Assembly (NCBI GenBank): GCA_918797485.1
Contig: CAKKNE010000001.1
Span: 6,076,001-6,140,000, forward strand
Source: Pelagomonas calceolata
Taxonomy: Eukaryota
DNA length: 64,000 nt
Direction of reading: 5' to 3'
Shown here: piece by piece, positions 205-29,806 of the stretch
Layout of the letters: each line of letters opens with the position of its first letter
Numbering within the stretch: position 1 is the stretch's first letter
Position numbers and translations under genes: made by a program
The notes under the pieces: generated by a model
Seen by the model: the letters and a program-made list of their open reading frames with translations, nothing else
What the model was told of the DNA's origin: nothing
The model's database searches: none

Positions 205-2441
205 TCAGTCCGTCGGCTCGCCGAGGGGTGGGAGCCGCCCCGCCTTCGCGAGGTCGATGATCTCCTTCATGCCCTTGACGGCCTGCTTCAAATTCGGCCA
301 CGCGGGCCCGTACGACATGCGGAGCCTGTACGGAAATCGAGCCTAAGTCAAGCCGTGGACGCATTATTCGAGACGCGGTGCTCCGCTTGTCAATATACGG
401 CGACTTGTGGAAGCGGCGGCGGTGGAAGGGATTCACGTCGAAGAATATGCCTGGCACGCAGATGACCTTGTGTCGGACACAATACTCGAAGAACACCACG
501 CAGTTGTTCAGCGGCGGCGGCAACGCCTGTGCGGAGAGACTCGTGTCGGCCTCCACGCCATCGAGCAGACGCAGTACGCTACCGAGACGTCCGCCCAGAT
601 GTAAAAGGTGCTCTTCGGCACGCGCGCCTTGATGCCCATCGCCTCGAGCTCCCGTACCATGTAGTCGCGCTTCTCGCGGAAGTGCGCCTGCAGCGCTAGC
701 GCGTCCTTTTCCACAAATCCAGGCTCGAGCAAGGGAACCGCGGCCTTTTGCAGCGGGTTGTTCGTGCCGCCGTCCATGAAGGAGCCGATGCTTCCCAACA
801 CATCAATGCAGTGCTTCGGTCCCACCACCCAGCAGCAACGCCAACCCCTGCGGGAAGATCGCGTCGATGGCGCGGAGCGTGCAAACGGAAAGACGGACGC
901 GGGAGGCGAGCGGCAACCGCCAATTTTTCGTGAAGCCGTTCACAATACATATAGGGTCCTTGTTGACATCTTCTACGAACTCCGCCGACGAGAGCGTGTG
1001 GAAGGGTCGGCCACTCGATGAGTCCTGCTCGTACATGTAGTGGGAATAAAATTCGTCCATGAGCATCATCGTGTTCTCCTGGCGCGCGATCTCGACGTAT
1101 TGCCGTAGAGTGTCTCCCTCAATCGGCTCGCCCGTGGGGTTCGCCGGGTTGCTCCAGAGAAACGCCCCTAATCCATGCAGTTGGATCTGGCGGCGTAAAT
1201 GCTCGGGCGACGTTCGCAAGCCGTCCTGGTCGTGGGCGATGGCGATCGGCGCCACTCCTGTGAACTCGCCGAGCAGTTGCTGGTACGCCGTGTAGTCCGG
1301 GAGAAAGTAGCCGACGTTGACGTTGTGGAGCGACGCCATCAAACGAGAGAGTCCCGCGCGGCCGCCTGGAACGATGGCCACGTTGGCCGCCGTATATTGC
1401 GACTTCTTGCCCTGGCGGAACCAGTGGTTGTAGTACTGGGCGACGGCGTCGCGGAGGTCGCGGCGCCCGTTGACGTCTCCATACTCATTCGTCTCGTCGT
1501 CGAGCTCGACGGCCAGAGAACGCTCCGGGCCGCCGATGGGCCCCGTCTCCGGCGCGCCCTGGCCGAGGTTGCCCCACGCGGGGTCGCCGGCGCCCTTGAA
1601 TCCCCAGCGCTTGGCCCGCGTCGTCGCCTGTGTGGAAATCAAAACTTCGCGGTGCGTGCTGAGTCGTCACGTCGACCTCCACGCCATTGACGCGTCGCCT
1701 GCTCGATGGCGTGGCGATGCCGGTTCCTTATTCGACGGTTTCAGAGCGGCGGCGTCATCGCCGAGAAGTGACTTAGTGAAGAATTATCGGGTGCACCCGA
1801 CACACTGGTTGATTTCCACACAGGTCGTCGCGTAGATGACGCCCGTGCGGCTCTGCATGGACATGATCTCCTCGCAGTCCGACATGGATTCCTGGACTTC
1901 CTGCCTGTGTGGACGTCGCGTCGATGGCGTCCATCTGTATTTGATTTCCGCACAGCCTCCTGCGTGGCGAGCACGGCGAGCAAGCCCTGGAGCTGATCCT
2001 GGTGGCTACCACCGTACGAGAGGATGTCCTCGGGAGCCTCGCCTGCTTACGAAACCGAGCTGTGAGTCGCGTCGATGGCGTGGAGGCGCCTCGAAATTTG
2101 ATTCACGCACACTGCTCCTTGCCGACGGCGGTTTCGCCGCCGCGCGGCGGTCCGCCCGGGAGACCGTCGGCGGGCGGAATCTCGGCGCCGCCGCCGCGGA
2201 TCCCTAACGCGCGGAAGTAGAACCGCGAGTCCTCAGGCGCCGCCGCGAAGTAGCGGTGGGCGACGCCGATGTCCTCGTCCTTGGAACGAGCCGCGACCAC
2301 GCGTTTCTTTTTGGTCGCTGCGAGTTTCTTTGCGCTGGGCCGCGCTTTCGACGTCGTCGAACCTCGCACGACCGCGCGCCGCGGCGAAATGCCCATGGAC
2401 GGCGCCAAAGCGCAGAGACCAATTGCAAGAATTAGCCTCAT
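205..2441 (-). CDS. PLP-dependent aminotransferase class I/II (AAT-like) with N-terminal signal peptide; 7 exons
   Basis: Exons 2441-2123, 2042-1964, 1904-1832, 1627-912, 847-583, 526-387 and 325-205 join to 1713 nt in frame. Motifs: NLGQGAPE, SNPANPTG, DEFYSHY, GFTKNWRLPGWR (PLP Lys), STFYIW, LRMSYGP. Confidence 0.88.
326..386 (-). other. GC-AG intron, degenerate Introner-like
   Basis: Removal joins YIDK to LRMSYGP. The 3' end GATTTCCGTACAG resembles the TIR. Confidence 0.7.
527..582 (-). other. GT-AG intron, degenerate Introner-like
   Basis: Removal joins WADVS to ALPPPLN. Contains TCGATGGCGTGG and ends TCCGCACAG. Confidence 0.8.
848..911 (-). other. GC-AG intron carrying the Introner core
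   Basis: Removal restores KNWRLPGWRCCW. Contains CGCCATCGACGCG. Confidence 0.8.
1628..1823. mobile_element. Longest Introner element (196 bp non-autonomous DNA transposon); intron is 1628-1831, GC-AG
   Basis: Perfect 15-bp TIR CTGTGTGGAAATCAA/TTGATTTCCACACAG. Perfect 8-bp TSD GTCGTCGC at 1620-1627 and 1824-1831. Splicing gives GVIY|ATTRA. Confidence 0.95.
1905..1955. mobile_element. Short Introner; intron is 1905-1963, GC-AG
   Basis: Ends CTGTGTGGA...TTGATTTCCGCACAG. TSD CTTCCTGC/CCTCCTGC (7/8). Core CGCGTCGATGGCGT present. Confidence 0.88.
2043..2122 (-). other. GC-AG intron, degenerate Introner
   Basis: Contains CGCGTCGATGGCGTGGAGGCGCC and a TIR remnant TTTGATTCACGCACACTG. Removal joins ETAVG to EAPEDIL in frame. 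Confidence 0.75.
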
Positions 2442-2858
2442 CGTGCCCAGTTCGCGTTGTCGGCGATTGACGGCGCAATAAAAACTAGACGAAGGCTAAT
2501 GAAAAAGCGCGAAACAGCTCGCGCGCGTACGCGCGGCGGGCGCGGTTCTGATTTAAAAACCCGTGTTTCTCACAATTGCCTCTCCGAGTCGCAAGCTGGT
2601 CGAGAGCTCTCCAGGGCAGTTCACAATGCTCCGAGGGCTAAAACGAGGCGTTGTTACCTGCTTCTAGTTTGCGCTTTAGTGTTTTTAGGCGGAGCCACCT
2701 GCGCGATATTTTGGCCTAGATCACCCCGAGTGTCAAAGTATTGTGGTTGGCGAGACGCTCACGAAACCCTCGAATCCCAAACTATTGAGCGCTGACGAAC
2801 CGAGCGCGGTTAGCGCACGGAAAAAATATAAATCTCTGCAGCAGACCATTTGCATTCT

Positions 2859-3140
2859 ATGGCTGCGACCGACGCTGTCGCCGTACGAGAGGTGGAAATC
2901 TCCTTCGCCGACACAATAAGCGGCCTCCTGTGCCTCGGCGGCATCGGTTTAGACGACGCCTCGGACGGCGACGAAGAAGAGATTTTGATCGATGGGCCGC
3001 GTGGGCGCGCCGACACGGTGCGCGCGTCGAGTTTGTCAATCCCTCTCGCCAGGGGCCCCTGCGTCTACCAATCTCCCGCGTGTACCTCCCCTGTGTCCAT
3101 GACGATGGCTTCCGAGCCCTCTCACGAAACCCGGAGCTAG
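2859..3140 (+). CDS. small hypothetical protein
   Basis: ATG-initiated ORF MAATDAVAVREVEISF... with an acidic patch; no recognised domain. Confidence 0.35.
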   Translation: MAATDAVAVREVEISFADTISGLLCLGGIGLDDASDGDEEEILIDGPRGRADTVRASSLSIPLARGPCVYQSPACTSPVSMTMASEPSHETRS

Positions 3141-3157
3141 TGTGTAAAGACACTAGC
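3136..3157 (+). promoter_or_regulatory. upstream GCTAG..GACACTAGC motif (8-bp inverted-repeat variant)
   Basis: GCTAGTGT-GTAAAG-ACACTAGC, about 130 bp upstream of the ATG at 3286. Confidence 0.6.
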
Positions 3158-3285
3158 AAGCCCAGGTGCTCGAGACGCGGGCGGCCTGGGCCGCTGCAGG
3201 CGTGTGCCGCAGGCGTCTCCGCTTGCTCGTAACGAGTTTGATTAGCACACGAACGGCTGGGTGCTGGCAATCAGCCCTGCGAGAC

Positions 3286-5345
3286 ATGCGGTGCTGCTTA
3301 CTGCTCTGCGCGGCGCTCGCCGCGGCGCCGGACCCGGAGGCCGCAGACACGGCACCCCTCGACGTCTTGCTCGTATCGGTCGGCCTCCACGGCCACGCCG
3401 TTCCCCTCGCGCGCCTCGCCCATCAACTGACAGAGCGCGGCCACCGCGCGACGCTCGCGACGCATAGTACAAAGGAAGCGAAACGCTGGGCGAAGGACGC
3501 GGGCGCGGAGTTTGTCTCATTGGGCGTGCTGGAACCATCACCACAAAAAAAGACGACGTCCATCAACGAGCGCGCGGCGGGTTTGATGGCTGCTGCTTTG
3601 AGGGGCTTCGGCGACGCGAAGGAGGAGAAGAAGGACGCCTGGGACGCGCTCGACGACGCTGATAATGAGGAGGAGGAGGGGCCGCTCGACGCTCGTAGAC
3701 TACTACTCGCGGCGCGGCGCGCGCGCCACGAGGCCGCCGCGCGCTACCTCCACTCTCATCAGAACGACTCCGAGTATGACGCGTCACTCATACCTCCATC
3801 GAAAACATTTGCGAAAGCGTCTCGGAAGGCCACGGCCTTGGGGGCGCTCGCTTGTTTGATGAATGAGTTGTATGTGCCACTCACAAGACCCGTCTACGAC
3901 GCTTTGTATGAACATTTAGCCAATGGTGGTAAAAGACCAGACGTCATCGTGGCGGACGTGGCGACCTTGGGCGCGCGCGACGCTGCGGATGTTTTTGACA
4001 TTCCCCTCGTCATCAACGCGCCTTCATTGTTGTATGGAAGAGCGGGCGGCGCGCCCGGCGCCGCTTTATCTTCCGGATCTTCGCGCTCCGAGAAGGCCCA
4101 GGCCGCGCTCGCGCCGAAACTGCTGGCGCTGGCGTCGTCTTCCGCATTAATGACCTCGAACCACGTCCGGCGCGCCGTCGGCCTGCGAATTCATTCGGGG
4201 CCCGACGAGCTCGTGCCGCCCGCGTTGCTGCGGCGGCCCGCTTCTGTAACGGACTTCCCGTGTGCCGCGCGCGCTTCATTACCACTAGATCCGCCGCCGC
4301 CGCCGCGCAACGGGACGTGCGCGAACGACGGCATCTGCGGCGCGCGGCCGCGCGAGCTCGTGCTCGCGAACACGGCGCCGGGCTTCGACCCCTTTGCTGT
4401 GCACCCGCCGCCGCGCGTCCTCGCGACCGGTCGGTACGCGGCGTCCCATCTTTTACGCCATCGACGCGACGGCGTAGTGGTTGTTGTTCTCGCGGACGGG
4501 TCGCGTCGATGGCGTGAGGGTGGTGTAGAGTCAGATGGGGCACGCTATCGCCGCGCCACGACAAAGACGCCAACGCAGGCCCGCTCCTCCCCGTCGACAT
4601 GGCGGCCTACAACGCGACCGCGCCGCCGGCGGCGCCCGCGTTGGTACGACGCTGGCTCGAGACCGCGGCGAAGGAGGGCCCCGGCGTCGTCGTCGTCTCG
4701 TTGGGACGGATGCCGCGCGTCGAGGGCTGGCAGGCCCACGCTTTAGTCAGGGGCCTGCAGCCGGACAAGGCGGGCAACGAGAGCGCCTGGCGCGTGCTCT
4801 GGGCCCTCGACGAGGATAGAAGAGATTCGCTGCCGCGCGAGCTGCCCGACGAGTTTAGGGTAAGGGGCCGCCTGCCGCTGCTGGCGACGATCGCGCAGCC
4901 CGAGGTCAAGGTCGTCGTGAGCCACTGCGGCGCCGGCGCGGCGATGGAGGCGCTCGCCTTCGGCAAGCCTTTGCTGTGTGTTCCGTTCTTTGGCGACCAG
5001 CGGGACGTCGCGCGGCGCGTCACCGACGCCGCGGCGGGTTTGTATATCGAGCCGCGGCGGCTGACGGAAGAGCGCGTGCGCGAGGCGGTATCCACAGTCG
5101 CGGGCGAGACATATAAGCGCGCGGCGGCGGCGGCGGCGGCGCAGCTCCGGGCGCCGGGCGGCACTGAAGCGGCGGCGGCGGCGGTCCAGGCCTGGGCGGC
5201 CCACGGGACGGTCTGCGGGCCCGACGTGGACCTGCCGTGGCACCGCGAGGCTGGTTTAGATAGACTCTGCGTCGCGCTGGCGGTGGTGATTTTGGTGGGC
5301 GCGGGCGCTTCGCGGGTGCTGAAGGCGCTGTCGGCGTATGCCTAG
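3286..5345 (+). CDS. UDP-glycosyltransferase (GT1) with signal peptide and C-terminal TM; intron 4430-4578
   Basis: GHAVP N-terminal motif, RPDVIVAD, and PSPG-like VVVSHCGAGAAMEALAFGKPLLCVPFFGDQ. Exons 3286-4429 and 4579-5345 join in frame. Confidence 0.9.
4430..4578 (+). other. GT-AG intron with two inverted copies of the Introner core
   Basis: ACGCCATCGACGCGAC (4455-4470) and GTCGCGTCGATGGCGT (4500-4515) form a 16-bp inverted repeat. Removal gives LATG|PLLPVDM. Confidence 0.8.
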
Positions 5346-5410
5346 AGGGGTGGCCGTTTTCAATTTCTAATTCTCATTTTAAGATGCTCTCCCCAGCTGC
5401 ACCGAGAAAA

Positions 5411-6145
5411 TCAAGCGTCGATTCCGAGATTAGCGCACATATGATTGTACCACATCTCGGCGGCCTCGTCGCCGGCCTCCTTGCGAACAATCTCGCGGCA
5501 CATCTGCATGTTCAGCTTCTTATTCTTGTCCGAGAACCGGTCCTGCTCCTGGAGGTGCTTGGTCTTGTCCTCAGCATAGGGAGTGCCCTCCGGGTCGAAG
5601 TCTAGCTTGAGCAGGGCCCAAACCCACGCCGTCGCCGTCGAGTAGAGGGCTTTGCCAAATGTTCCGTTGCCCGCGGAACGCATCATGCTAACGAAGAACT
5701 CCTTGTCCAAGAGCGACGCCAACGTGACTATTTCTTCGGCGAAAAGAACTTGGAGATCGACCGGCGTCTTCCCGTCGTCCTTCGGGACACCGGGTAAAGG
5801 GGGGAGGTGTTTCTCGAATAGGTTGCAAGAGGCGTTGCAAGGGTCAACGATGCTGTCGGACATACGCGAGATGGGTAGGGACTTGACGGGCAGCGCGTGG
5901 TCGATGGTTTCCACCCACTTGGTCGCGGCTTTCTCGAATTTGCATATATTGAACGACACGTCCTCCGCCGCGAGAGCTTTGCGAACTTCGACCTCGTACG
6001 CGGTGTAGGCCTCGTGGTGCTGCGCATAGGGCGACTTCACATTAACCATATAGGGCGGGAACTGGACGATGGGCATCTCCTTGAGGCTGCCACTACCGCC
6101 GCTGGCGGCGCGGGGGCGCTTCTTCGGGGGTGCGGTGGAAGCCAT
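5411..6145 (-). CDS. hypothetical protein with N-terminal NLS-like PPKKRPR
   Basis: 244-aa ORF with natural amino-acid composition; no family recognised. Confidence 0.65.
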   Translation of the reverse strand: MASTAPPKKRPRAASGGSGSLKEMPIVQFPPYMVNVKSPYAQHHEAYTAYEVEVRKALAAEDVSFNICKFEKAATKWVETIDHALPVKSLPISRMSDSIVDPCNASCNLFEKHLPPLPGVPKDDGKTPVDLQVLFAEEIVTLASLLDKEFFVSMMRSAGNGTFGKALYSTATAWVWALLKLDFDPEGTPYAEDKTKHLQEQDRFSDKNKKLNMQMCREIVRKEAGDEAAEMWYNHMCANLGIDA

Positions 6146-6530
6146 GAGTTTCAGATGAGGCTGGGCGGTGCTGCCGTCGCGCGGGGCAGCGGAGACTCGG
6201 GCAGCCGCGATGGCAACCAGGCACATGAGACAGACGCCGGCCAAGGCTAGTGGCCCCGCTCGCCGGCTCAAACCTCTCGCCCGGGCCAAGACTCGTCACC
6301 ATACCTCCTCTTGGTGTTTTTTGCGAGCGGTACGAACACCGGCTGCTCAGGTTCAGGCGATGAGAGGCTGTAAAAAACGCGTGCCTCAGCTCGACATAAC
6401 TCATCGGCACGGTCCACAAATTTGCGAGCGATCGCACTGGTGAACTGCTCGTTACATAAAAAAAATTTGAGGCGCCGCGCTGCGCCTGTCAGTAGAATCA
6501 GCTAGCCTGCAGCAGAGGTGCTACATAGCA

Positions 6531-7460
6531 ATGGCCGAGCCAGACATCGAAGAGCACGTCTCCTTGGACCTGCACCACCTGAGCGCCACGTACAAAGTGC
6601 CCGCGGAAACGGGCGAAGCGCTGACGGCGCAGGCGCGCGACGCGACGCAGCTGCTGGTCGCCGGGTTGTTTGCGCTGCCCGTCGAAAAGACGAACGAGGG
6701 CCCCGTCATCACGCTGCCCGCCGCGACGACGGCGCTGCCGCGCGAAAAGCCCGTGCCCCAGCCGCGCGCCGAGACGAAGTGGGAGAAGTTCGCCAAGGAG
6801 AAGGGCATCGCCCCCAAAAAGAAGAGGTCCCGCATGGCCTGGGACGAGGAGCGGGAGAAGTGGGCGCCGGCCTGGGGCTACGACAAGGTGGGCGGCGACG
6901 AGGCGGACGCGCCGATCATCGAGGTCTCCGAGCGCGACGCGGCCGAGGGCGTGGACCCGCGCGAGGAGGCGCGCGCCGAGAAGAAGGCGCGCGTCGCCAA
7001 GAACGCCGCGCAGCGCGACGCCAACGACGCGCGGGCCCGCAAAAAGAAAAGAGGGCCCGAGCCGGAGGGCGTGCCGTCCGGCCTGCCCGTCGACCTGCAA
7101 GGGAAAAAGAAGGGCAAGGCCGGCGTCAAGGGCGCGCTCGAGCGCGCCCAGGTCGCGACGGCGTCGCTCGGCCAGTTCGACGCCGTCGTCGCCGGCGAGG
7201 GCAAGCGGCCGTCGGGGCCCGCGCGCGGCCGCAAGCGCCAGTTCCTGAGCGTCGCGTCCGCGCGGGGCTCCGACGCGGCGCGCGCCTCGGCCATCCTCCA
7301 GGACCTCGAGCGGCCGCGCGCGAAGCGGCCCGGCAAGGGCGAGGCGGAGCGCATGGACACGCACGACGGCGAGCTGCCGAACGAGAGCGGCTTCAAGCGC
7401 AAGAAGGGGAAAGCCGCCGCGGGCAAGTCGAAGAAGATCACGAAGAAGCGTGGCATGTAA
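6531..7460 (+). CDS. RRS1: ribosome biogenesis regulatory protein RRS1
   Basis: LPREKPVP..ETKWEKFAKEKGI..KKKRSRMAWDE..WAPAWGY and ATASLGQFD motifs. Confidence 0.92.
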   Translation: MAEPDIEEHVSLDLHHLSATYKVPAETGEALTAQARDATQLLVAGLFALPVEKTNEGPVITLPAATTALPREKPVPQPRAETKWEKFAKEKGIAPKKKRSRMAWDEEREKWAPAWGYDKVGGDEADAPIIEVSERDAAEGVDPREEARAEKKARVAKNAAQRDANDARARKKKRGPEPEGVPSGLPVDLQGKKKGKAGVKGALERAQVATASLGQFDAVVAGEGKRPSGPARGRKRQFLSVASARGSDAARASAILQDLERPRAKRPGKGEAERMDTHDGELPNESGFKRKKGKAAAGKSKKITKKRGM

Positions 7461-7541
7461 GAAACTGTGACACAACATTAACCATTCACTAGTAGGGCCG
7501 GGAGCAGCACGCCATCGATGCGTCGCGTCGACAGCTTCAGA

Positions 7542-8279
7542 TCACCAGCCGTGCGCGCTGTACGGCTTGATGCTGCGGAGCCTCGAGATCCGGAGCCGCT
7601 CGGCCCGGCTGTCGACGACGGCTTCGCGGATGACCGCCATTTCTCCCTCGCCGACGCCCGCGCTCCGACGGCCGACGCCTGCCCAGACGACGCTCGAAGA
7701 CCCGCGGCCCGCCGTCAGGAGGTGTGAGACTTTCGAATTGGTGCGCCCGTCCTCGAGGTACTGCTGCTCCGGGAGCATAGCCGTAGAGTTCACGATCTTG
7801 GGTTTCCCGAACGCATCCGAGTATTCCAGCACGGCACCAAACACAAGGTCGCTCTCCTCACGTCGTCGCGTCGCGCCTTTCGAGATCGGCAAGTCCTCGT
7901 ACTCCGCCACCGGCTTGAGTCGTCGAGCGTCCTCGTGGTCGGTGAGCGGCGGCGGCAGCAGCATCTCCACGAATTCGACGGCGTTTTTCTTGCGCTCTGC
8001 TATGCACTTCCCCAGTGCATCGCCCGCGACGGCGTGGTCGGTAGCACTGCCCACGGCTCGCAGCGCCGTGCCGCGCGGACCCTCGATTATCATCGGTGAG
8101 GCGTCGCTGGGCGCTTTGGACGTCGCCTGCCGCACGAGCGCCGCGACGCTCGGGCTCTGCCACGGCTGGGCAGCCAAAGCTCGGTGGGCGGTCTCCCGGG
8201 CGCGGCGCCGGCGCCGTGGTGGATCTGCAGAGGAGGGGCGGCGGCGGGGCCGGCCGCGCGCGGTCGAGGGGCCCAGCAT
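7542..8279 (-). CDS. hypothetical protein
   Basis: Open frame MLGPSTARG...LRSIKPYSAHGW with coding-like codon use; start uncertain. Confidence 0.55.
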   Translation of the reverse strand: MLGPSTARGRPRRRPSSADPPRRRRRARETAHRALAAQPWQSPSVAALVRQATSKAPSDASPMIIEGPRGTALRAVGSATDHAVAGDALGKCIAERKKNAVEFVEMLLPPPLTDHEDARRLKPVAEYEDLPISKGATRRREESDLVFGAVLEYSDAFGKPKIVNSTAMLPEQQYLEDGRTNSKVSHLLTAGRGSSSVVWAGVGRRSAGVGEGEMAVIREAVVDSRAERLRISRLRSIKPYSAHGW

Positions 8280-8937
8280 CGATCGATGGCTCGTTCTAGG
8301 CTGCCCACTGCCTGATTTATCTCCGTGGCAGCAGCGCCTTGCAAAGCGCTCTGCCGCGCGCGCGGCTAGCGGGCTCCAAACCAGGAGTAGTCGGCGGGGA
8401 CTGATTGCTGCCGAGAGATCCGCCGGGCTCTTAGAATGGCGCGCTGCTTTCTTGCGATGGAGCCCGCGTCGGCGCGCCCCGCGGCGATGGACCGGGCCCA
8501 CACCTGTCTCCAGAGGTAGCAGGCGTACGAGGCCAGCCACCTGCCTTACTTCTGGATTTTCTTTCGAGTGCCGTTGCCATCACAATTCGCGACCTACGCT
8601 AATGTACTCGTAGTTGGTAAAGCTGCGTGTCTCAAAAGCGGCACGCAAACGCAGCCCAAAAGGTACGCGCCCACACGAGAGTGAGCGTAAAGTAGCCGAG
8701 ACGCCCTACAGAGACGCCGCGCGCAAAAAACGCGCAGCCCGGGCGCCCCGCGCACGCATTTCTACAAGCCCCAGCGAAAAGCCCCAGCTAAGGCCGGGGC
8801 GGCGCGCGGCGCCCCCGCCCGCGCAACGCCGCAGCGGCCACACCGACGCAGCTCCCGGCACATAGTCAACATTTACGGCCGCGCCCCGCAGGCACAACCA
8901 CACCGCCGGCGCCGCCGCGGATTCACCGGCATCTCCC

Positions 8938-10062
8938 ATGGACGAGACCAAGGCGGCCGACGCCGCCGCCCTCGACGCCTCGATCCTGCCCACCATGGCC
9001 GCCGCCGAGGCCACGCTCCAGGAGCTCGACGCCGTCGTCAAGCCCGAGCCCACGATAGACGCGCTCAGCATCAACACCTACGCCGGGCCGCCGCCGCGCA
9101 CGTCGGGGCGCCGCCGCAAGCCCTCGGTCCTCGTGCACCAGGTCTCCGTCGACGAGGACGACGGCGGGCTCTACGTCCAGCCCGCACCGCGGCCCGTCTA
9201 CCAGGGCGGCGTCCGCCTCAGCGCGTTACGGGTGAAACAGCTCGTCGACTCGGACCAGGCGACCCTCGACCGGGACGAGATCTGCGAGGCCATGGACGTC
9301 GACGGCAAGGTGAGCCAGACGGACTACGGGCGGTGCGGCGGCATGCTCTCCGGGCGATTGGGACCGAACAAGTTCATTGTTGATTATGCTAAGGGCCTGC
9401 GGTCGAAGTGCAAGCGCCACCGCTGCAAGCACGCCTTTAGGGACGGCGAGCTAAGGGTCGGCAAGATCCCGCCGCGCGCGCGCAAGGACGTGCCGGCGCG
9501 CCGCGTCCACTGGTACCACCCCGCCTGCATCTTCAAGTCGTTTGAGCGGGCGTCCAAGAAGACGAAGACCATCGATACTATTGAAGAGATCGAGGGTTTT
9601 GAAGAACTCCACAAGGCGGACCAGCGCGACCTCGCGAAGCGCGTCGACGAGTGGGCCGCGCGCAAGGCCGAATCCCTAGCTATGTACAAGCCCAAGAAGA
9701 AGAAGGCGCGCCGCGAGTCGCCGTCGGCCGTGGCCCTGGCGCTCGCCGTCGCGGAAGCCGCGGCCGCGCCCAAGAAGCTGAGGATGGACCCGGGCGGCTC
9801 CGAGTTCGTCACGCCGCCGTCGTCGCCGAAACCCAAGGTGCGCACGGTCACGCCCTGCGACGGGCCGTCCAGCGACGAGGACGTTTCGTTAGATGGCTCG
9901 TCCCATTGTATGTTCTTACCGGAGCCCGTCATCAGTGTCGAGGAGTCCATGGAGATGCCTCTGATGGAGATGCCGCTCGACTCCCTGGCCTACGTGGACG
10001 CGAACGACACGTTGGATTTTGGCGCGCTGCTCCCGAGCATCTTCGATGAAGTGGAGGGCTGA
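8938..10062 (+). CDS. PARP-type zinc finger protein
   Basis: DYAKGLRSKCKRHRCKHAF..GELRVG..HWYHPACIF..IEGFEELHKADQ, followed by a basic NLS and an acidic tail. Confidence 0.85.
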   Translation: MDETKAADAAALDASILPTMAAAEATLQELDAVVKPEPTIDALSINTYAGPPPRTSGRRRKPSVLVHQVSVDEDDGGLYVQPAPRPVYQGGVRLSALRVKQLVDSDQATLDRDEICEAMDVDGKVSQTDYGRCGGMLSGRLGPNKFIVDYAKGLRSKCKRHRCKHAFRDGELRVGKIPPRARKDVPARRVHWYHPACIFKSFERASKKTKTIDTIEEIEGFEELHKADQRDLAKRVDEWAARKAESLAMYKPKKKKARRESPSAVALALAVAEAAAAPKKLRMDPGGSEFVTPPSSPKPKVRTVTPCDGPSSDEDVSLDGSSHCMFLPEPVISVEESMEMPLMEMPLDSLAYVDANDTLDFGALLPSIFDEVEG

Positions 10063-10722: not shown

Positions 10723-10784
10723 CAGCATCAGCGCTCAAATCCAGCGCTACGGACAGCACCAGCGCTCGAATCCAGCGCTACGGA
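10723..10784 (+). repeat. 31-bp tandem duplication just 5' of a start codon
   Basis: CAGCATCAGCGCTCAAATCCAGCGCTACGGA followed by CAGCACCAGCGCTCGAATCCAGCGCTACGGA. Confidence 0.85.
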
Positions 10785-10793
10785 CGCCAGCGG

Positions 10794-12011: not shown

Positions 12012-12396
12012 GGTTTCGAGTGTAGTCCGTCTCGCCTGGCGCGTCGATGGCGTGCGCGTTCACGGCGACGACTTCCGAGGCCGCGCGTCGGCGGGAGGAG
12101 TCGCCTAGCGAGATAGCCCCTCTAGCAGGCGAGTGCAAGCCTGCACCAGCGCCAAACTCGGTGAGCAGTGCATATCACAAGCTTAGAGCCGCTGTGCACA
12201 GACCTTTTGATTGACACCTTCAGTCCCTGCCGCGAACACTGCAACAGATAGGCTCTCTGGCAAGTTGCAGACTGCCCACACAAAGCACCGAGTTGCATAC
12301 AGCTGCGCATCGATACGCCGAGGTGCAAACAGCAGCGCATCGATACGCCATCGCCGCGATAGCACCTCAGGGGACACCGCAAGGCTACAACAGAAA

Positions 12397-19100: not shown

Positions 19101-19149
19101 TGTAAGAAAGCAATAACAATGAGGACCACCCAAAGGTTACACACAAAGT

Positions 19150-20284
19150 CTAGTCGTCCTCGTCGTCCATGGCGTCCTTCCGCCGCGCGACGTACGCCCT
19201 CGCCAAGTCCTTGACCGCGGCGGCCGACGCCGCGTCGCCGTGCTCGCTCTCGAAGGCGGCAAACCGTTTTAAAGCAGCGTTCATCATTTTCGGAGGGAGG
19301 TCCGCGGCGGCCAGCCGCGTTTGTATATGACGCGCGTGTTGCACGTCGCCGGCTTTCAAGGTCTTCGCCACATATAACTGCCACAGGTCCGCTCTCCTAG
19401 GAAAGCGCTCCAGCAACTTGTCGAAGACCGTCCTTCCTCGATCCCGGCTCCCGTCCTCTAATTCCAAACAGGCGTATCTAGATAAGAGCGAAGCCTCCTC
19501 CTTCGGAGCACCGTCGCAGGCCTGGACGCCTCTCTTCACAACGGCATCCGCACCCTTGGCGTCGCCCGCCAATAACCGAGACCGGGCGTGGCGCAGCCAG
19601 ACCTCTTCTGTAGTTTTGGCTTGATGTTTGGCTCGTTTCTCACATTTACGATACACCGCATCGCTTCGCTTGAAATCTTGCGCCGCATCCAACAAAGCGC
19701 CCAACCTTAACAGTACTTTGGTAGGGTCACAATTCGCCACGGCTCGCTTCGTCGTCGCATCTAATGACGTGGAGTCGCCGTGCTTCCGTTCTAGTTCCAA
19801 CAAACAGGCCCAGACATCCAAGCGAGCATCTTCGCGCCGGTAGTGGATCGTCTTCAGGCCTCTCTCTAAAACTTTCCGCGCGCCGGGCGCGTCGTCCTCG
19901 CGCTCCAGTAGGAAAGTAGCATACGTCGTATAAGCCGCGGCCTCGTCCTGATGAGCGACCAAATGACGTTCGTAATCATCGCTGGAACGCATCTCGTCGT
20001 TGAGCAGCGCCTCCTCCGAGGCCATCGTTTGTAGTTCGGCCGCGCCCTCGTCCGCGGGCTCCGTTTTACGTCTTTTCGTCTGCTTGGGCCGCTCCTCGTC
20101 CCAGCGTAAAGCTTGGGCCTCTTCATCGTCGTCGTCGTCGCTCTCGTCGTCGCTGTCTTCGTCCTCCTCCTCGTCTTCGGACGAGTCGGCGGCCTCGTCC
20201 TCTTCTACTGCATCGTCGTCGCTCTCGTCGTCGGAGTCGTTCGCTAATAACGCGTCGGCTCTAGCTAAAGCCTCGTCATCATCA

Positions 20285-20316
<32 letters not shown>

Positions 20317-23300: not shown

Positions 23301-24815
23301 TGATCTGGCCCGTCAATGTCTCTGATAATCTCACTTCGAGGCCCCAGGCCTGGGTCGAGAGGACCGTCGCACTTATGATCGTCCCGGGCTCGAGTTCATT
23401 TTTTGAGACCGGCACCGCGGGATTTAATGACGAGGGCGTCATCGACGCGAGGGCCCAGCCCTCCAGCGGCGCGACGCCCACGACGCGACAGTCTACGACA
23501 GTGGCTTCCAGGTCTTCTTCCGGCAAGCGCGACTTGTGCACGAAGATGCCCTGATCACCTTTGCGCAACACGAGACCTACCTTCGGGTCCTTGCGGACGA
23601 CGGAGCAGCCCTTCAGGAAGGCTCCCGGCGCCGGTAACGCCGCTCCTGTTAACTCTAGCAAGTGTTCAGCACAAGTCAGCCGCGCGACCTTCGCGGCCCG
23701 ATCAATCAACAACACGCGCGCATCTAGGAACTGGCCGACACTAAACTCGTCCAAATTCATAAACGCCTCGTCGTCCACTAAGGAACCCTGCCTTCCCAGG
23801 TGGTCCCGTTCGATGACGCCGGCTAGAGCGCCATCCGCGAACGTAACAACTAATCCAGTAGCGACGCGGCGGTGGACGCACGCTCGGACTCGTTGTCCTA
23901 CACATAGAGCGCGGAAGCTCCAGCCCGTTTTCTCGGGCGCGTTTTTTGCGGAGGCGACGTCCCGCGTCGTCAGCGCGCCTGCGTGGGGGTCGACGCTCTA
24001 CGACGGCTCCGAATGACGCCATCGCCGCGACTCTCTACACCACCGCGACTCTACACCACCGGCACGCCATCGCCGCGCCACGAAGTCGAAGACAGACACC
24101 GGCACGCGCAGACGCCCGAGTCCGGGTCGAGCCTGAGCACGCGGCACTCGACGGGCGCGCCCACCCTTATATCCTCCTGACAATGCTTGAAGGCCAGGAA
24201 GCCCGTCGCGCCGCCTACTCCTACATCTACCACATAACCTCTAGCTTCTCTCGATGCCACGAGCCCGAAGAGCGTCGTCACTCTAGAAGAAGCGATATCT
24301 TCCAGCCTTAATCCTTTCTGGACGCCCCTGGCATCAATCGCTAGCTCGACGCGCTTCGGGCCCTTCTTTGAGCCAGGGGCTGCCCCTGCTCTAGAAGTCG
24401 AAAGCACCGCGCACCTTACAACAGTATTCGGCGTGAGCTGTAGAGCTCCGGAGACATCCACATGACCCACCAGGTTCCCCGGTAATGAGACGAGGGCGTG
24501 CTTGGTTGACGTGGACCGCACGACGCCGAGCACGGTGGTCTCCGCATGATATGAAGCGAAGCGGACGGGTCTTAGTTTGGCGGGCTTGCCCCTTGCGGCT
24601 TTCACGATTGTTGTTGTTGTGAGGACGTCGAGCGGCGTCGACTGCTGCTGCTGCTCCGGCTCGGCTGCGGGCGCCTTGTCGACGCGCTTCGCGGGCTTGC
24701 GCGTCGCTAGTAAGTCCGCGTCGTTCTCCTTGCGCTTGCGCTTCTCTTTTTTCTCTTGCTTCGGGTCTTTCGGTTCATCGCTTAAGCCGCCGCGCGGGAA
24801 GGCGGCGGACGACAT
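19150..24815 (-). CDS. RRP5: rRNA biogenesis protein RRP5 (S1 repeats plus HAT/TPR); one intron from 23979 to about 24100
   Basis: N-terminal FPRGG, multiple S1 domains (YGAFVSF, YGVFVRI, SLGLKPSYF), acidic linker, C-terminal HAT (RGRTVFDKLLERFPRRADLW). In-frame donors are possible at 24097, 24103 or 24109. Confidence 0.93.
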
Positions 24816-25408
24816 TGTGCTGCAGTGTTGTGCTGCTCAGCAGCGATCGCGACGACTAGCGCCGAGCAGGCCTGCCGTTGCAGCAGTGCTTGGCGCTAGA
24901 ATGCCAGCGCTCAGTGGCCTGTGCAACCTCGTTTCTCGGTCAGAGACGGTGCTCTTTCATCGCCGCCCTTGTTGTCTCTCACAGGCAAGGCTTTACCAAC
25001 CTCGATCCATCCTTCCCTAGTGCTACTGCGGCGTTATGTACTGCAAGCGAGGCCCTCCTAACGAAAAAAAAAAATTGAAGACACTCTCCGTTAATTGAGA
25101 GCATTTCAGGTTGCCAACAGTATAATCGCGTCTGTGAGCCTGAGGGAAATAAGGTCTAGGCCCGCCGCGCGGTTTCGGCCCCCACTGACCGAGTCTCGCC
25201 ACAGCGACAACCCTTGCGGTGGGCGAAACGGCAGTAAAAATCGCCCCAGCAGCGCCGCGGCAGCGCTGCAGCGAAGATCGACCTTAACACGTGCGCTTCT
25301 GGCTGGAAAGCTAGTCGCCTGCCTCATCCCCCCTCCTAAAATCACCCCAGGGCGCAGCCCCAGCGACCACAGTTGAACCACAGCGACCAGCTGCCACCGC
25401 GGAAGACC

Positions 25409-25900
25409 ATGCACGCCTACCGCCGCCGGTCGTGCTCGACCAGCACGGGCGCCTGGTCCGACGACGACGAGCTCGTGAGCATCAATAGCGGCGGCGCCCT
25501 CGAGAAGTTCGAGTCGAGCTTCGTCTTCGAGGCCGAGGCCTCGACGCCCGGCGGCCTGCCGCTCCGCCGGAGCCCGCGGAAGCTCAAGCGGCCGGCGAAC
25601 CCCGTGGCGCGCGCGCTCCTGCGCGTCGACGACGACGACGACGACCGCAGCTTCGCGCCCATCGAGGACCCGGCCCCCGACGCGCTCACGAAGAAGCGCA
25701 AGTCCGCCGCGACGCCCGCGCGCAAGCCCAGCCGCCGCGTCAAGGAGAAGGCCGTGCCGCCGCCCGCGCCCTCGACGCTCTCGACGCAAGTCGCCGACCT
25801 GGCCATCGACGACGACCGCCCGCTGGCGCTCCGCCGGCCGCCGCGCCTCTCCGCGCTCCCGGCGCCGCCGTCGCCGAACGCGAACCCGCTCGGGGTCTAA
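25409..25900 (+). CDS. hypothetical low-complexity basic/Pro-rich protein
   Basis: ATG ORF with strongly GC3-biased codons. Confidence 0.6.
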   Translation: MHAYRRRSCSTSTGAWSDDDELVSINSGGALEKFESSFVFEAEASTPGGLPLRRSPRKLKRPANPVARALLRVDDDDDDRSFAPIEDPAPDALTKKRKSAATPARKPSRRVKEKAVPPPAPSTLSTQVADLAIDDDRPLALRRPPRLSALPAPPSPNANPLGV

Positions 25901-25906
25901 TTATCA

Positions 25907-26035
25907 TCTCTGTGAACTCGCGTCGACGGCGTGGCGGGGAGCGTTCGACGACCACGCTCGCGAGTCGCCGTGGCAGTCCATTTCATTCAGGAGATAAATT
26001 ACGCGTCGAGCGGACGATCATTAAATTCACAGAGA
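25907..26035. mobile_element. MITE-like relative of the Introner family in a convergent intergenic gap
   Basis: 10-bp inverted ends TCTCTGTGAA/TTCACAGAGA and core CGCGTCGACGGCGTGG; no clean TSD. Confidence 0.55.
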
Positions 26036-26038
26036 CAC

Positions 26039-26803
26039 CTAGAACGCCGCCGGGTCGAGCGCGCACGGCTCATCAGTTTTTTCAAGGACAAACACTGACC
26101 CTTTGTTACCGCGCCCGCAGCGCATCGTCGGCGACAGGTAGGTCGTCTCGAGCCACGCCTCGCCGCCCTCGCCGCGCAGGTCGGGCTTCACCGCGTTGAT
26201 GAGCGAAAAGACCCAACCCGCCGAGAAGAGCCGCTTGTCGCCCGACCCGAAGACCTCCAAATTGTCGAAGAGCACGTCGGCGCGCCGCCCGTTCGCGCCC
26301 CGCCGAAACCCGCCGGAGACGCGCACCGTACAGCCCCCAAACGCGTCGAAGCCGATCTCATTCGCTACCCTTGATCGCGCAACATCGAAGGCCTGGATCG
26401 GCAGCTTCTCCGACGTGTCAAGCACGAGGCCCGACGCGTTGACGGCGTTCGCGCGACCCATATTCTCAAGATCGTCGCCCGGCTTCCGGCCCGCGACGGT
26501 GGCGAGCAGGCGCCAGCGGCCGTCGAGGCGCGCCGCGTCCGTGTCGAGGAAGTCGTCGGCCACGCAGACGGCCTCGAGGTCGTCGACCGCTTTCAAGATC
26601 GCGGCCCGATCGCCGCTTGCGCAGGCCGTCTTCGCCGCGGCCTCGGTCCGGGCGTTCGCGCCGGGCATAAATAGTGCCTTTTCCTGGTAGAGGAAGGCCG
26701 AGTCGCGCTTCAGGAGCAGCTTCCGGACGCCGTCGAGCATGTTGAGGCCGCCGGCCGGCGCGGCGACGAGCAGGACTAGGAGAGCACCAAGCTGGCGCGT
26801 CAT
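26039..26803 (-). CDS. PAP/fibrillin family plastid lipid-associated protein
   Basis: Signal peptide, LDGRWRLL, WLETTYLSPTMRCGRGNKGSVFVL. Confidence 0.88.
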   Translation of the reverse strand: MTRQLGALLVLLVAAPAGGLNMLDGVRKLLLKRDSAFLYQEKALFMPGANARTEAAAKTACASGDRAAILKAVDDLEAVCVADDFLDTDAARLDGRWRLLATVAGRKPGDDLENMGRANAVNASGLVLDTSEKLPIQAFDVARSRVANEIGFDAFGGCTVRVSGGFRRGANGRRADVLFDNLEVFGSGDKRLFSAGWVFSLINAVKPDLRGEGGEAWLETTYLSPTMRCGRGNKGSVFVLEKTDEPCALDPAAF

Positions 26804-26933
26804 TTTGAGCGCTTATTTGTTGATTTGGTTGCACGAAATCGCTGTGCAGCAGCCAGAGGTATATAAATGAGCAATGCCACAATTTGCGCACAGCGGATAA
26901 CGGTGAAATGGCCAGTACAGCCGAGGATGCGGG

Positions 26934-26958
26934 GCTAGCGGCAGTAAGACACACTAGC
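26934..26958 (+). promoter_or_regulatory. upstream motif
   Basis: GCTAGCGGCAGTAAGACACACTAGC in a divergent gap, about 130 bp before ATG 27089. Confidence 0.7.
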
Positions 26959-27088
26959 AAGCGGTGGGCTCGAGGCGCAAAGCTGCCCCAAACGCCATCG
27001 ACGCGTGCGCTGGTCCGCATCGATGGACGAGAAGCTGCCCTGAGCCAATAGATGCCAATGCGAACACACATGAGGTGATCTGAATACT

Positions 27089-28332
27089 ATGCTGCTGCTG
27101 CTGGCACTGGCAGCGGTACGCGCCCACGCGAAGGTTGTTGACAACGCCGACTTCTGGACGCAATCGCTGGACTGCCCGAGGCCTCCGACTCGAACGGCCA
27201 CGTTCCTCACGCCCGACGGGTCTAACGCGGCCGACGTCCTTGGTAGCACGACGGGAGCGTTCCTAACAATCCTCCACGAGCATCTCGATCGCACGCCGTG
27301 CATCTTCGCGCGCCTCGCGAACACCGTCAAACCGTTCCGCTTCAAGCGGTTCGTGATCGTCGTCGATAGTGCCGAGAAGACCGCGGCCGGCACGGCGCGC
27401 GCGACGGAGCGTCTGGACGCCTTTGACGGAGCCTGGCTCAACACGACATGTGCCTTCGCGGACGAGGTGCGCGTCGCCGTGCTGGATCACGGTCCGACTC
27501 CGAATGCCCTAGCGCGTGCGACGCTGGCACGAGTCACGACAAACGTGACGGGGGTCTGGGGTCGCCGTGACGAACTCTACAAGAACGGGCTTCAGTACCT
27601 GGCGCTGGTCTCGGGCTGTGTGGAAATCAACCAGTGAGTTAGATTTGGGGCGCCCGAAATTTGATTTCCACACAGGTCTCGGGCGTCCTCCTGCCGCTGC
27701 GCTACGTCTTCAACGTCGACGAGGAACTGTCGCTGGGCTGGCTTGAGACCGGGTCTCCAAGGACGGTGGAGGCGCCGTTTTCGGCGTTCCTGGCGGCGGC
27801 TGTCCGAGACTTCGCGCGCTCGTCCTGGTTCGCGGGGTATTCAGTCCAAGAATGTGTGCGCGCCTGCGACGATTCCCGATGTAGCTTTGTGCCACATCAC
27901 GGCCGCTGGGTCTTCGAGGCCGCCTTATTCCACGTCGAGCGCTTGTCGAGTTTTCTTCAGAAGCGACCGCTCTCGCATGATGATCTTTTTATGCACCCGG
28001 AGGCGATGCTCAACCGCTGGTCGCACGCCCAGCACGGCGCCATGCTGAATGCCAAGTTGGGGGAAGTGTCTCGGGCTGTGTGGAAATCAACCAGTGAGTT
28101 AGGTTGGTCGCGTCGATGGCGTGGGGCGCCTGAAGTTTGATTCCCACACAGGTGTCGGGTTGCGCGGTCGCTGCGGGGAGAATGTAAAGTGGCCGTCCTC
28201 TCAGGGCGGCGCGGCCGATGCGTTCGGAAGGACGGGCGCCGCCTCGTGCTCCACTGGGAGACCAAGGGCGAGTACGCATGTGTGTTGGAGGCACCATACA
28301 ACGTGCCGCAGTGCCACCGGGGGGAATGTTAG
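27089..28332 (+). CDS. secreted protein, possibly GT-A fold glycosyltransferase-like; two Introner introns
   Basis: Exons 27089-27607, 27676-28067 and 28152-28332 join in frame (1092 nt). Signal peptide; FVIVVD and YVFNVDEE motifs. Confidence 0.7.
27616..27675. mobile_element. Introner (60 bp); intron is 27608-27675, GT-AG
   Basis: Perfect 15-bp TIR. Perfect TSD GTCTCGGG at 27608-27615 and 27676-27683. Confidence 0.95.
28076..28151. mobile_element. Introner (76 bp); intron is 28068-28151, GT-AG
   Basis: TIR CTGTGTGGAAATCAA/TTGATTCCCACACAG. TSD GTCTCGGG/GTGTCGGG. Core motif present. Confidence 0.92.
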
Positions 28333-28348
28333 TTTTTGTGTGCTAGTG

Positions 28349-28867
28349 TTACGAATACGCGCGTTCGAGCAGCGCGCGCGGCAGCGGTGTTTGGAGCACC
28401 GGGATCGCGACGAGCGACACCGCGTGGCAAAGGACCTTGAACGGTGGCAGGGCCCAAGGATGCCGGAGCAAGAGGTTTAACAGCGCGACTCGGTACGAGC
28501 CCAGGAACGAGAGCCCCGCGAAGTGAATGATCGCGTCGCCGTACTGATAAGAGAACATGTACGCGTTCCAGGGCCGTTGGGCGATCCGAGCCGTCTCGGG
28601 CGCGAAGCGCGTCGCCGTCGGGAGCATAGCGTTCGTACGTCTCGTACACGTGTCGACGTCTGGCTCGTCGCACATGTATTTGAGCAAGGCCGTCTGCTCA
28701 CCCTTGACGAAGCCGCCCTCGCCGTCGCGCCGGGGCCGCGCACCGCGCGCTACTACGTCGTCGAGCAGCTTCAGCGCGAACGCATCGTTGCGAAACAGCA
28801 TGATCCCGGCATTTAAGTTATACTGCCAGTCGCCCGAGAAGACCACGCTGTAGGAGTGGCGCGCCAT
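28349..28867 (-). CDS. GT34 (galactosyl/mannosyltransferase)-like C-terminal half; possibly truncated
   Basis: DWQYNLNAGIMLFRN, EQTAL, WNAY, GDAIIHFAG. The N-terminal DxD region is absent. Confidence 0.65.
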   Translation of the reverse strand: MARHSYSVVFSGDWQYNLNAGIMLFRNDAFALKLLDDVVARGARPRRDGEGGFVKGEQTALLKYMCDEPDVDTCTRRTNAMLPTATRFAPETARIAQRPWNAYMFSYQYGDAIIHFAGLSFLGSYRVALLNLLLRHPWALPPFKVLCHAVSLVAIPVLQTPLPRALLERAYS

Positions 28868-28950
28868 CGTTGCCTGACGAGTTTTGGGCTCAGTGCATGC
28901 GACTGGCCACGTACATTCGTGTTTTGGAGCGAGCGCTACGCAAGGGAAAG

Positions 28951-29806
28951 ATGGCGAGCGTTGCGGAGGACGGGTCCAACTATCGAGTCCTCGTGACTGG
29001 CTTCGGACCGTACGGAAACACCCAAATAAATCCGTCTCTGGCGGTCGTCAACGCGCTGAAGTCAAACCGAGACGGGAGCCGCGGCTACGAGGTAGTCGCG
29101 CGCCAGGTTTCGTGCGAGTTCAACAAATGCATCGAAGAGGCGGCCGCGTTCATCGACGAGCTCGCGCCTAACGCGGTTGTGATGCTCGGCGAATATCCAG
29201 GACGCGCGATGGTGACCGTCGAGCGTGTCGCGATCAATTATAATGATTCGACGCGCTATGGCGTCTGTGACGAAGCGGGATACGCGCCGCAGGGTACCAA
29301 AGTCGTCGAAGACGGCCCGGCCGCGTACCTGTCGACGCCTGTGTGGAAACCAAGTCTAGGCGCCCCACGCCATCGACGTGATGTTGTCCCCGTCCACACA
29401 GGTCAACGCTTCCCCTCCGCCGCATCGTGCGCGACCTGCGCGCCGCCGGAATTCCGGCCGACATCTCGGGCGACGCCGGGACGCTGATGTGCAACCACCT
29501 CATGTACGGCGTCCTGGACGCGTGCTCCGGCCGGGACATCGTCGCCGGGTGGGTCCACCTCCCGGCGCTGCCGGTTCGACTCGGCGTCCTCATTTTGGGG
29601 TCGCGTCGATGGCGTCGAGCTCCACGCCGCCGATGCGATGTGTTGGTCACACACAGGAAATGGCGGCAAAAGATGAGAACCTCGGGATGCCGTCGATGAC
29701 GGCGGAGCTCTCGACGCGAGCCGTCCTGAGCGTCGTCGCGTCCGTCGTCGAAGGCTCCAAGCAGGGCGACATCCCGGACGCCGTCAAGAGCCGGCTGTTA
29801 GTCTAA
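28951..29806 (+). CDS. pcp: pyroglutamyl peptidase I (peptidase C15); introns 29331-29401 and 29574-29656
   Basis: VLVTGFGPY..NPS, ERVAIN, DGPAAYLSTLP, DAGTLMCNHLMY, GWVHLP. Exons join to 702 nt. Confidence 0.92.
29339..29401. mobile_element. Introner (63 bp) in reverse orientation; intron is 29331-29401
   Basis: Ends CTGTGTGGA...TCCACACAG. TSD GTCGACGC/GTCAACGC. Its 5' part matches the reverse complement of the 3' part of the 28076 element. Confidence 0.9.
29574..29656 (+). other. GT-AG intron, degenerate Introner
   Basis: Core GTCGCGTCGATGGCGT; ends CACACAG; removal joins LPALP to EMAAK. Confidence 0.8.

What the first reader, a model, noticed from the sequence alone, without database searches (positions are those of the whole stretch)
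326..29656. Decay series of Introners: nearly all introns share one family, and both orientations splice
Seen: of 13 inferred introns, 12 carry the TIR end (..TTTCCACACAG-like) and/or the core CGCGTCGATGGCGT. Only the tRNA-hosting intron lacks both. They range from perfect TIR+TSD (1628, 27616), through one TSD mismatch (1905, 28076, 29339), to core or remnant only (326, 527, 848, 2043, 4430, 23979, 29574). Copies at 1628, 27616 and 28076 begin CTGTGTGGAAATCAACCAGTG in gene sense; copies at 1905, 2043 and 29339 are inverted. Inference: elements shrink by internal deletion to 55-85 nt. Most retain the 14-mer core, which may be a transposase-binding, splicing or methylation signal.
Basis: partly seen in the sequence, partly recalled or inferred. 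Interest (0 to 1): 0.7.

Follow-up and report, generated by a model that had tools for sequence, protein, structure and literature searches.

The report
Jumping introns shrink at fixed points
In what is likely a marine alga, most introns in this region carry pieces of small jumping DNA elements that are spliced out in either direction (a known trick), but related copies lose their middle starting about 31 bases from each end, likely because repair after a jump leaves a shorter intron behind.

Summary
RNA confirms 6 of 13 junctions directly, in both element orientations; one more is bracketed by contigs; six restore an aminotransferase frame. The design (8-bp TSD supplies the GT/GC donor, the TIR supplies AG, either orientation) is the published Aureococcus/Pelagomonas introner mechanism. 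Corrections: it is not one family. 90 metagenome copies fall into three ~203-nt subfamilies sharing TIRs, one of them without the core. The core is not a splicing signal: a core-less copy splices, and 7 of 18 cores lie outside introns. What appears new: shortening is not random. Deletions start 30-34 nt inside end A (31 of 71 in F1, 3.4 expected; 11 of 25 in F2, 1.5 expected) or stop 28-34 nt inside end B (18 of 71, 4.5 expected), in either orientation. The window's 60-nt copy is exactly 30+30. This geometry explains most core retention; the core also carries fewer substitutions (p=0.006). Likely cause: excision followed by one-sided gap repair. No transposase was found.

The parts
1628..1823 (-). 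Near full-length F1 introner (196 nt), perfect 15-bp TIRs, end A first; intron 1628-1831 (GC-AG) includes one TSD copy; TSDs 1620-1627 and 1824-1831
   Evidence: junction lies in a conserved block of homologs
1905..1963 (-). 59-nt GC-AG intron, 51-nt element, end B first, exact core, TSD 1 mismatch
2043..2122 (-). 80-nt GC-AG intron, degenerate TIRs, end B first, exact core; donor inferred from frame only
   Evidence: junction in an unconserved N-terminal region
848..911 (-). 64-nt GC-AG intron, core with 1 mismatch, no TSD or 5' TIR left
527..582 (-). 56-nt GT-AG intron holding the inverted arm of the internal hairpin
326..386 (-). 61-nt GC-AG intron, TIR-like 3' end 11/13, TSD 5/8, no core; family link weak
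225..2441 (-). Host gene: class I/II aminotransferase, 564 aa once six introns are removed
4430..4578 (+). 149-nt GT-AG intron in a glycosyltransferase gene; two exact cores as an inverted pair; no 5' TIR; possibly another core-bearing family
   Evidence: (contig breaks)
15609..15745 (-). 137-nt GT-AG intron hosting tRNA-Pro(AGG) at 15644-15717; no family similarity
   Evidence: (361 and 192 reads, 2 contigs)
23979..24109 (-). 131-nt GC-AG intron in an RRP5-like gene; two direct cores with 1 mismatch each; shares a 14-mer with intron 4430
27616..27675 (+). 60-nt F2 element made of consensus positions 1-30 and 174-203, perfect TIR and TSD, no core; intron 27608-27675 (GT-AG)
   Evidence: (8 and 15 reads, 2 contigs)
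28076..28151 (+). 76-nt F2 element, positions 1-30 and 160-203, end A first, exact core; intron 28068-28151
   Evidence: (20 and 26 reads, 2 contigs)
29339..29401 (+). 63-nt F2-derived element, end B first; intron 29331-29401 in a pyroglutamyl peptidase gene
   Evidence: (3 and 11 reads, 1 contig)
29574..29656 (+). 83-nt GT-AG intron, exact core, TIR-like 3' end 8/13, no TSD
   Evidence: (4 and 6 reads, 1 contig)
12040..12053 (+). Exact core outside any intron, just beyond a transcript 3' end
   Evidence: contigs end 12018/12024; next starts 12116
26992..27005 (-). Exact core outside any intron, inside an unspliced 5' region
   Evidence: contig continuous 26968-27616

Best explanation
These introns carry non-coding ~203-nt DNA elements with terminal inverted repeats and 8-bp target duplications that are spliced out in either orientation, and related copies shorten by deletions that begin about 31 nt inside either end, likely because a transposase excises the element and repair rebuilds it from one side only. 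Shown: the duplicated GT/GC is the donor and the AG that ends either TIR is the acceptor, so the mRNA is restored exactly; three subfamilies share TIRs and length but not interiors; deletion breakpoints pile up near 31 nt from each end. Inferred: excision would leave, or repair would stall at, a fixed stub of about 31 nt at each end; one end is then extended by copying an intact element and joined to the other stub; repeated rounds give ends plus a central island, and direct joining gives the 30+30 form. The splice signals sit within the TSD and the stubs, so the intron survives and gets shorter. The core most likely is an internal transposase-binding site kept by selection on mobile lineages; its survival in short copies is mostly a result of where the deletions start.
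For: Breakpoints: F1 31 of 71 deletions (>=10 nt) start at 30-34 and 18 of 71 end at 169-175, against 3.4 and 4.5 in simulations through the same aligner; F2 11 of 25 against 1.5. Counting distinct deletions only: 25 and 15 of 62 in F1. End-A stubs have a sharp upper edge at 33-34 nt and a tail to shorter lengths, as trimming of a fixed end would give. An independent set of 9 flanking copies: 5 of 7 deleted ones start at 30-33. The window's 27616 and 28076 copies break after position 30. The anchor is orientation-independent (F1: 12 of 27 end-A-first, 9 of 18 end-B-first), so 3' splice-site selection does not explain it, and anchored junctions show no excess microhomology. Interior divergence does not rise as copies shorten (7.7%, 9.7%, 7.9%) while TSD mismatch does (3%, 15%, 24%), which fits recopying of the interior. 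Core singletons 4 of 746 vs 95 of 5067 elsewhere, p=0.006. Analogy: P excision leaves 17-nt overhangs of element ends (PMC5466332, passages) and interrupted gap repair yields internal deletions (PMC5991514, passages).
Against: No transposase or autonomous copy was found (26 of 30 ORFs from 4 loci scanned). No full-length and shortened alleles at the same site were seen. In P elements gap repair deletes the centre most often, the opposite of this profile, so ordinary two-sided repair does not fit; I know of no 31-nt staggered cut. The end-B anchor is not significant in F2 (5 of 25, p=0.058). L115 and L064 share a deletion and a broken core at two different sites, and F3 has no core, so the core is not strictly needed for mobility.
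Confidence: 0.55

Rival explanations
1. Chromatin sets the breakpoints without excision: a nucleosome centred on the 203-nt element would have edges near positions 29 and 175, and breaks or stalled repair at those edges are resected inward.
For: (203-147)/2 = 28, close to the observed stubs of 28-34 nt. All three subfamilies have the same length. Linker insertion is reported for Aureococcus introners (PMC9860276, passages).
Against: The peak is sharp (23 of 71 F1 deletions start at 32-33). Already shortened copies, which could not hold the same nucleosome, carry both anchors. Core-less F3 has the same length but 0 of 6 copies show a deletion, against 64 of 82 for F1/F2 (heavily deleted F3 copies could be unrecognisable). 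No chromatin data here.
Confidence: 0.2
2. One reading: one family decays passively by random internal deletion and the host keeps the core as a splicing or methylation signal.
For: Length falls with TSD mismatch. Exact cores persist in introns whose TIRs are gone (2043, 4430, 29574). F1 retention is slightly above the anchored null (p=0.046). Orphan cores occur in UTRs and spacers, which a host DNA-binding role could explain.
Against: Three subfamilies, one without core. Breakpoints far from random. Core-less intron 27608 splices. The core occurs in both orientations in spliced introns. No CpG transition excess. No retention excess in F2.
Confidence: 0.1
3. Short copies are separate mobile MITE lineages born from a few old deletions; the pile-up at 31 reflects shared ancestry.
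For: L115 and L064 share a deletion and 9 derived bases at two sites. 5 of 15 copies under 100 nt have perfect TSDs. Published Pelagomonas MAG families average 80 and 85 nt (PMC9860276 supplement).
Against: 62 of 71 F1 deletions and 25 of 25 F2 deletions are distinct. 11 of 12 pairs with identical deletions share at most 2 derived bases. The same anchor appears in two subfamilies with unrelated interiors. One ancestral deletion cannot give many longer interiors with the same left break.
Confidence: 0.1
4. A 10-bp palindrome centred at 30|31 in F1 extrudes and is cut by a structure-specific nuclease.
For: F1 has a perfect 10-bp palindrome at 26-35 and F2 an imperfect one at the same place (sequences).
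Against: No palindrome at the end-B anchor; F2's is imperfect yet equally anchored; 10 bp is short for a cruciform (own knowledge).
Confidence: 0.05

Closest known systems
Aureococcus anophagefferens introner elements (Huff, Zilberman and Roy 2016; paper not held, known through 10.1101/2020.10.14.339549, PMC10228655 and PMC9860276 passages)
   Same: MITE-like; 8-nt TSD; one splice site carried and one recruited from the TSD; introns made in either orientation; Aureococcus MAG families of about 200 nt.
   Different: Described as having TIRs and repeats of constant length (PMC7789003 passage); I saw no account of end-anchored shortening or of this core in the passages read. Sequence identity with the Aureococcus elements was not tested.
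Pelagomonas calceolata introner elements (PMC9481584; passages and supplement passages)
   Same: 956 putative IEs with GT/GC donors, AG acceptor and TIRs; intron length peak near 210 matches 203+8 = 211; genome GC 63% is like this window. These are probably the same elements.
   Different: That note gives no subfamilies, deletion map or core. The TIR and core strings were not found in the text of its supplements (the logo is a figure and one file was unreadable).
Fungal introner-like elements (PMC3609843, abstract and passages)
   Same: Degenerate in sequence and length until they look like regular introns.
   Different: No TIRs or TSDs, proposed RNA-based spread; no fixed breakpoints described in the passages read.
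Drosophila P-element internal deletions by interrupted gap repair (PMC5991514, PMC5466332; passages)
   Same: Excision leaves fixed lengths of element end at the donor site; repair yields internally deleted copies.
   Different: Stub is 17 nt, not about 31; central sites are deleted most, whereas here the centre is kept most (retention 0.26 at 41-50, 0.90 at 131-140); P is not an intron-maker of this kind.

Membership tests
Aureococcus/Pelagomonas-type introner MITE | 8-bp target site duplication | tested here: met
   43 of 90 metagenome copies perfect; 5 window copies with 0-1 mismatch
Aureococcus/Pelagomonas-type introner MITE | Terminal inverted repeats, no coding capacity, about 200 nt | tested here: met
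   15-bp TIR; modal length 203 nt in three subfamilies
Aureococcus/Pelagomonas-type introner MITE | Donor GT/GC recruited from the TSD, acceptor AG carried by the TIR, exact mRNA restoration | tested here: met
   RNA joints skip 68, 84 and 71 nt = element + 8; 43 of 43 perfect TSDs offer GT/GC in at least one direction
Aureococcus/Pelagomonas-type introner MITE | Intron creation in either orientation | tested here: met
   27608 and 28068 end-A-first, 29331 end-B-first, all spliced; perfect TSDs 20 A-only, 16 B-only, 7 both
Aureococcus/Pelagomonas-type introner MITE | Many similar copies at unrelated sites | tested here: met
   90 copies with distinct flanks; reads from other copies in the organism's own RNA
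Aureococcus/Pelagomonas-type introner MITE | Insertion into nucleosome linkers | not testable with these tools
   No chromatin data
Aureococcus/Pelagomonas-type introner MITE | Presence/absence at orthologous sites | not tested
Published P. calceolata IEs | Sequence identity with the published elements | tested here: inconclusive
   No element sequences in readable supplement text; length, GC and splice pattern agree
P-element superfamily | 8-bp TSD (recalled; shared with hAT) | tested here: met
   not diagnostic
P-element superfamily | P-type transposase in an autonomous partner | tested here: inconclusive
   No transposase domain in 26 ORFs from 4 loci with an unpaired end; no genome held
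P-element superfamily | Staggered cut leaving element ends at the donor site | tested here: inconclusive
   Fixed stubs seen, but about 31 nt rather than 17 nt
Fungal introner-like elements | Absence of TIR and TSD | tested here: not met
   Both present

The most novel reading that the evidence does not exclude
An unknown transposase cuts these introners about 31 nt inside each end, so every excision leaves a shorter but still spliceable intron. This would be a ratchet that turns mobile 211-nt introners into permanent 60-70-nt introns, with the 14-mer core as the internal transposase site whose loss freezes a copy. Intron maturation would then be driven by the transposon's own activity, not by passive decay.
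Probability: 0.3. Interest if true: 0.8.

Novelty: new variant of a known kind. Interest (0 to 1): 0.52.

Why it matters
Introners are a major source of new introns, but how they become ordinary short introns, and why cut-and-paste excision does not simply remove them, is open. A fixed stub of about 31 nt at both ends, shared by subfamilies with unrelated interiors, is a precise signature that predicts where the enzyme cuts or where repair stalls. It can be tested with the existing genome, population reads and chromatin data. The splicing design and the two orientations are already known and add little.

Tried and rejected
Whole-genome analysis was not possible: no genome is held. Huff et al. 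2016 is not in the library, so its figures and supplements, which may already show deletion patterns, were not seen. The first RNA lay (1-20000) was dominated by reads from other copies and showed only the tRNA-intron joint. Viral contigs hold neither the TIR 21-mer nor the internal hairpin pattern. No transposase domain near unpaired ends (26 of 30 ORFs sent). The F2 core test used wrong coordinates and is replaced. Aligner artefact rejected by simulation. Microhomology-driven deletion rejected for anchored junctions (mean 0.80 vs 0.78 null in F1). A nested-intron or reverse-splicing origin of the deletions was considered and dropped because breaks fall 2-4 nt after the nearest GT, not at it (sequence). 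A palindromic target preference is not needed: only 7 of 43 perfect TSDs offer a donor both ways. The RNA fold of the 1628 intron is stable (z -3.4), which the TIRs alone may explain; no weight was put on it. Earlier scan notes returned nothing. Searches for a prior report of anchored shortening listed no such paper by title or abstract start.
Full report
Setting. The window is GC-rich (0.59-0.76 per 2 kb), gene-dense eukaryotic DNA. No genome is held. No call names the organism. The best named homologs of its aminotransferase are stramenopile. GC content, GT/GC donors with TIRs and an intron length of 203+8 = 211 nt agree with what PMC9481584 reports for Pelagomonas calceolata (passages; supplement passages). 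A pelagophyte, probably that species, is therefore an inference.

The observation. The 14-mer core has 8 exact matches against 0.01 expected, and 18 at one mismatch or fewer against 0.63. Eleven of the 18 lie in 13 introns totalling 1,247 nt and seven lie elsewhere. All are in the first 30 kb. Nine of 13 introns carry the core; 326, 527, 27608 and the tRNA intron do not.

Splicing. RNA laid on 23700-29800 shows joints for all five predicted introns: 23979-24109 (2 reads, 1 contig), 27608-27675 (8 and 15 reads, 2 contigs), 28068-28151 (20 and 26 reads, 2 contigs), 29331-29401 (3 and 11 reads, 1 contig) and 29574-29656 (4 and 6 reads, 1 contig) (the two raw runs are one sample). 27608 and 28068 are end-A-first and 29331 is end-B-first, so both orientations splice. 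On 1-20000 only the tRNA-intron joint was among the 15 rows shown; contigs end at 4430 and begin at 4578, and a 2,024-nt contig runs on past 4428, consistent with that intron. The six aminotransferase introns are supported by protein evidence: removing them yields 564 aa, and five junctions fall in blocks conserved in homologs; the 2043 junction is in an unconserved region.

Known mechanism. The skipped length equals element plus 8 nt: the donor is the GT/GC of the first TSD copy and the acceptor is the AG that ends either TIR. This is the pattern reported for Aureococcus, including either orientation (10.1101/2020.10.14.339549, passages; PMC10228655, passage). Huff et al. 2016 itself could not be read. 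Degeneration of introners into regular introns is also in print for fungi (PMC3609843, abstract and passages).

Family structure. Ninety had a far TIR and a TSD position, all with distinct flanks; 32 were dropped as truncated or unpaired. They split into F1 (62; one core plus an inverted arm), F2 (20; two cores, two arms), F3 (3, plus 3 among the dropped; no core) and 5 unclassified, all with the same TIRs and a full length near 203 nt. The window's 1628 copy is F1; 27616, 28076 and 29339 are F2. Introns 4430 and 23979 share a different 14-mer beside the core and have no 5' TIR. 'One family' holds only at the level of TIR or core. All 43 perfect TSDs offer GT/GC in at least one direction: 20 A-first only, 16 B-first only, 7 both. 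Lengths run continuously from 54 to 207 nt, with one of 262; 14 of 90 are 85 nt or shorter.

Shortening is end-anchored. Of 71 F1 deletions of 10 nt or more, 31 start at position 30-34 and 18 end at 169-175; simulations with random placement through the same aligner give 3.4 (max 7) and 4.5 (max 9). In F2, 11 of 25 start at 30-34 (1.5 expected); 5 of 25 end at 169-175 (2.1 expected, not significant). Counting distinct deletions gives 25 and 15 of 62 in F1. Nine further copies found in flanks without the exact search pattern repeat this: 5 of 7 deleted ones start at 30-33. The window's 60-nt copy at 27616 is positions 1-30 plus 174-203, with perfect TSD. The anchor is independent of orientation and of microhomology. 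Shorter copies have more TSD mismatches (rho -0.39; perfect in 15 of 20 long vs 25 of 67 shorter, p=0.004) but not more interior divergence.

The core. In F1, 39 of 47 deleted copies keep it, against 24.5 under uniform placement and 35.6 when the anchors are kept and lengths permuted (p=0.046). In F2, 12 of 17 keep one, against 9.6 and 12.4. Most of the retention is therefore geometric. Deletions from end B are shorter than those from end A (p=0.003), which may be the residual effect of the core. The core has fewer singleton substitutions than other interior sites (4 of 746 vs 95 of 5067, p=0.006), and CpG transitions are not raised. It is not needed for splicing (27608), F3 lacks it, and two copies at different sites share a broken core. 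It also occurs in UTRs and spacers by RNA evidence (7509, 12040, 12345, 25919, 26992) and as 21 orphan matches at <=1 mismatch in 213 kb of loci. A transposase-binding motif shared by several repeat families is the most economical reading; it is inferred, not shown.

Mechanism. A fixed breakpoint with a variable partner, symmetric at both ends, blind to orientation and sequence interior, points to a DNA-level process tied to the ends. I favour excision followed by one-sided gap repair and end joining to a stub of about 31 nt (0.55). P elements provide the analogy of fixed stubs and repair-born deletions (PMC5466332 and PMC5991514, passages), but their stub is 17 nt and their centre is lost most often, so this works like P at best and is not filed as P. 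Nucleosome edges at about 28 nt are the main rival (0.2). Core-less F3 showed no deletion in 6 copies against 64 of 82 in F1/F2, which favours an activity-linked cause but rests on few copies. No transposase was found.

Verdict. The elements and their two-way splicing are a known kind, very probably the published Pelagomonas introners. The end-anchored shortening was not found in my searches, with the caveat that the key paper and some supplements were unseen. It is a strong pattern in a biased, mixed-source sample, with an untested cause. Interest 0.52.

Noticed in passing
window 3137/3156, 14326, 26935, 30837, 32895, 35779, 45621, 55244, 63655: A motif CTAG-N9-16-ACTAGC occurs 10 times against 0.35 expected, in gaps upstream of genes by eye, and 26 times in 213 kb of related loci. 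Candidate promoter element.
   Followed up: partly
window 15609-15745: A tRNA-Pro(AGG) gene lies in sense inside a 137-nt spliceosomal intron of a well expressed VWA-domain gene; splicing confirmed.
   Followed up: partly
window 4519-4532 and 24040-24060: Introns 4430 and 23979 share an exact 14-mer next to the core and lack the 5' TIR; possibly a further core-bearing repeat family.
   Followed up: partly
window 1-30000 vs 30001-64000: All 18 cores and all TIR pairs lie in the first 30 kb; none in the remaining 34 kb. Unexplained clustering; six of 13 introns are in one weakly expressed gene.
   Followed up: no
L009, L083, L099, L012, L026, L118: Core-less subfamily F3 keeps full length although its copies differ from each other, mostly near end A.
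   Followed up: partly
L036:1483-1744, L047, L050: Some copies have gained tandem or duplicated core-containing segments (one is 262 nt with three cores), so the core region also expands.
   Followed up: no
L101: End A followed by an unrelated, less GC-rich interior, cut by the contig end after 165 nt; could be a fourth subfamily or the end of an autonomous element.
   Followed up: no
window 35860-38192: A long repeat-containing ORF is interrupted by an in-frame TGA near 37226-37228 (by eye); pseudogene or sequence error.
   Followed up: no
window 56137-56365: The 3' end of a gene appears duplicated around a short low-complexity CG-rich insert (by eye).
   Followed up: no
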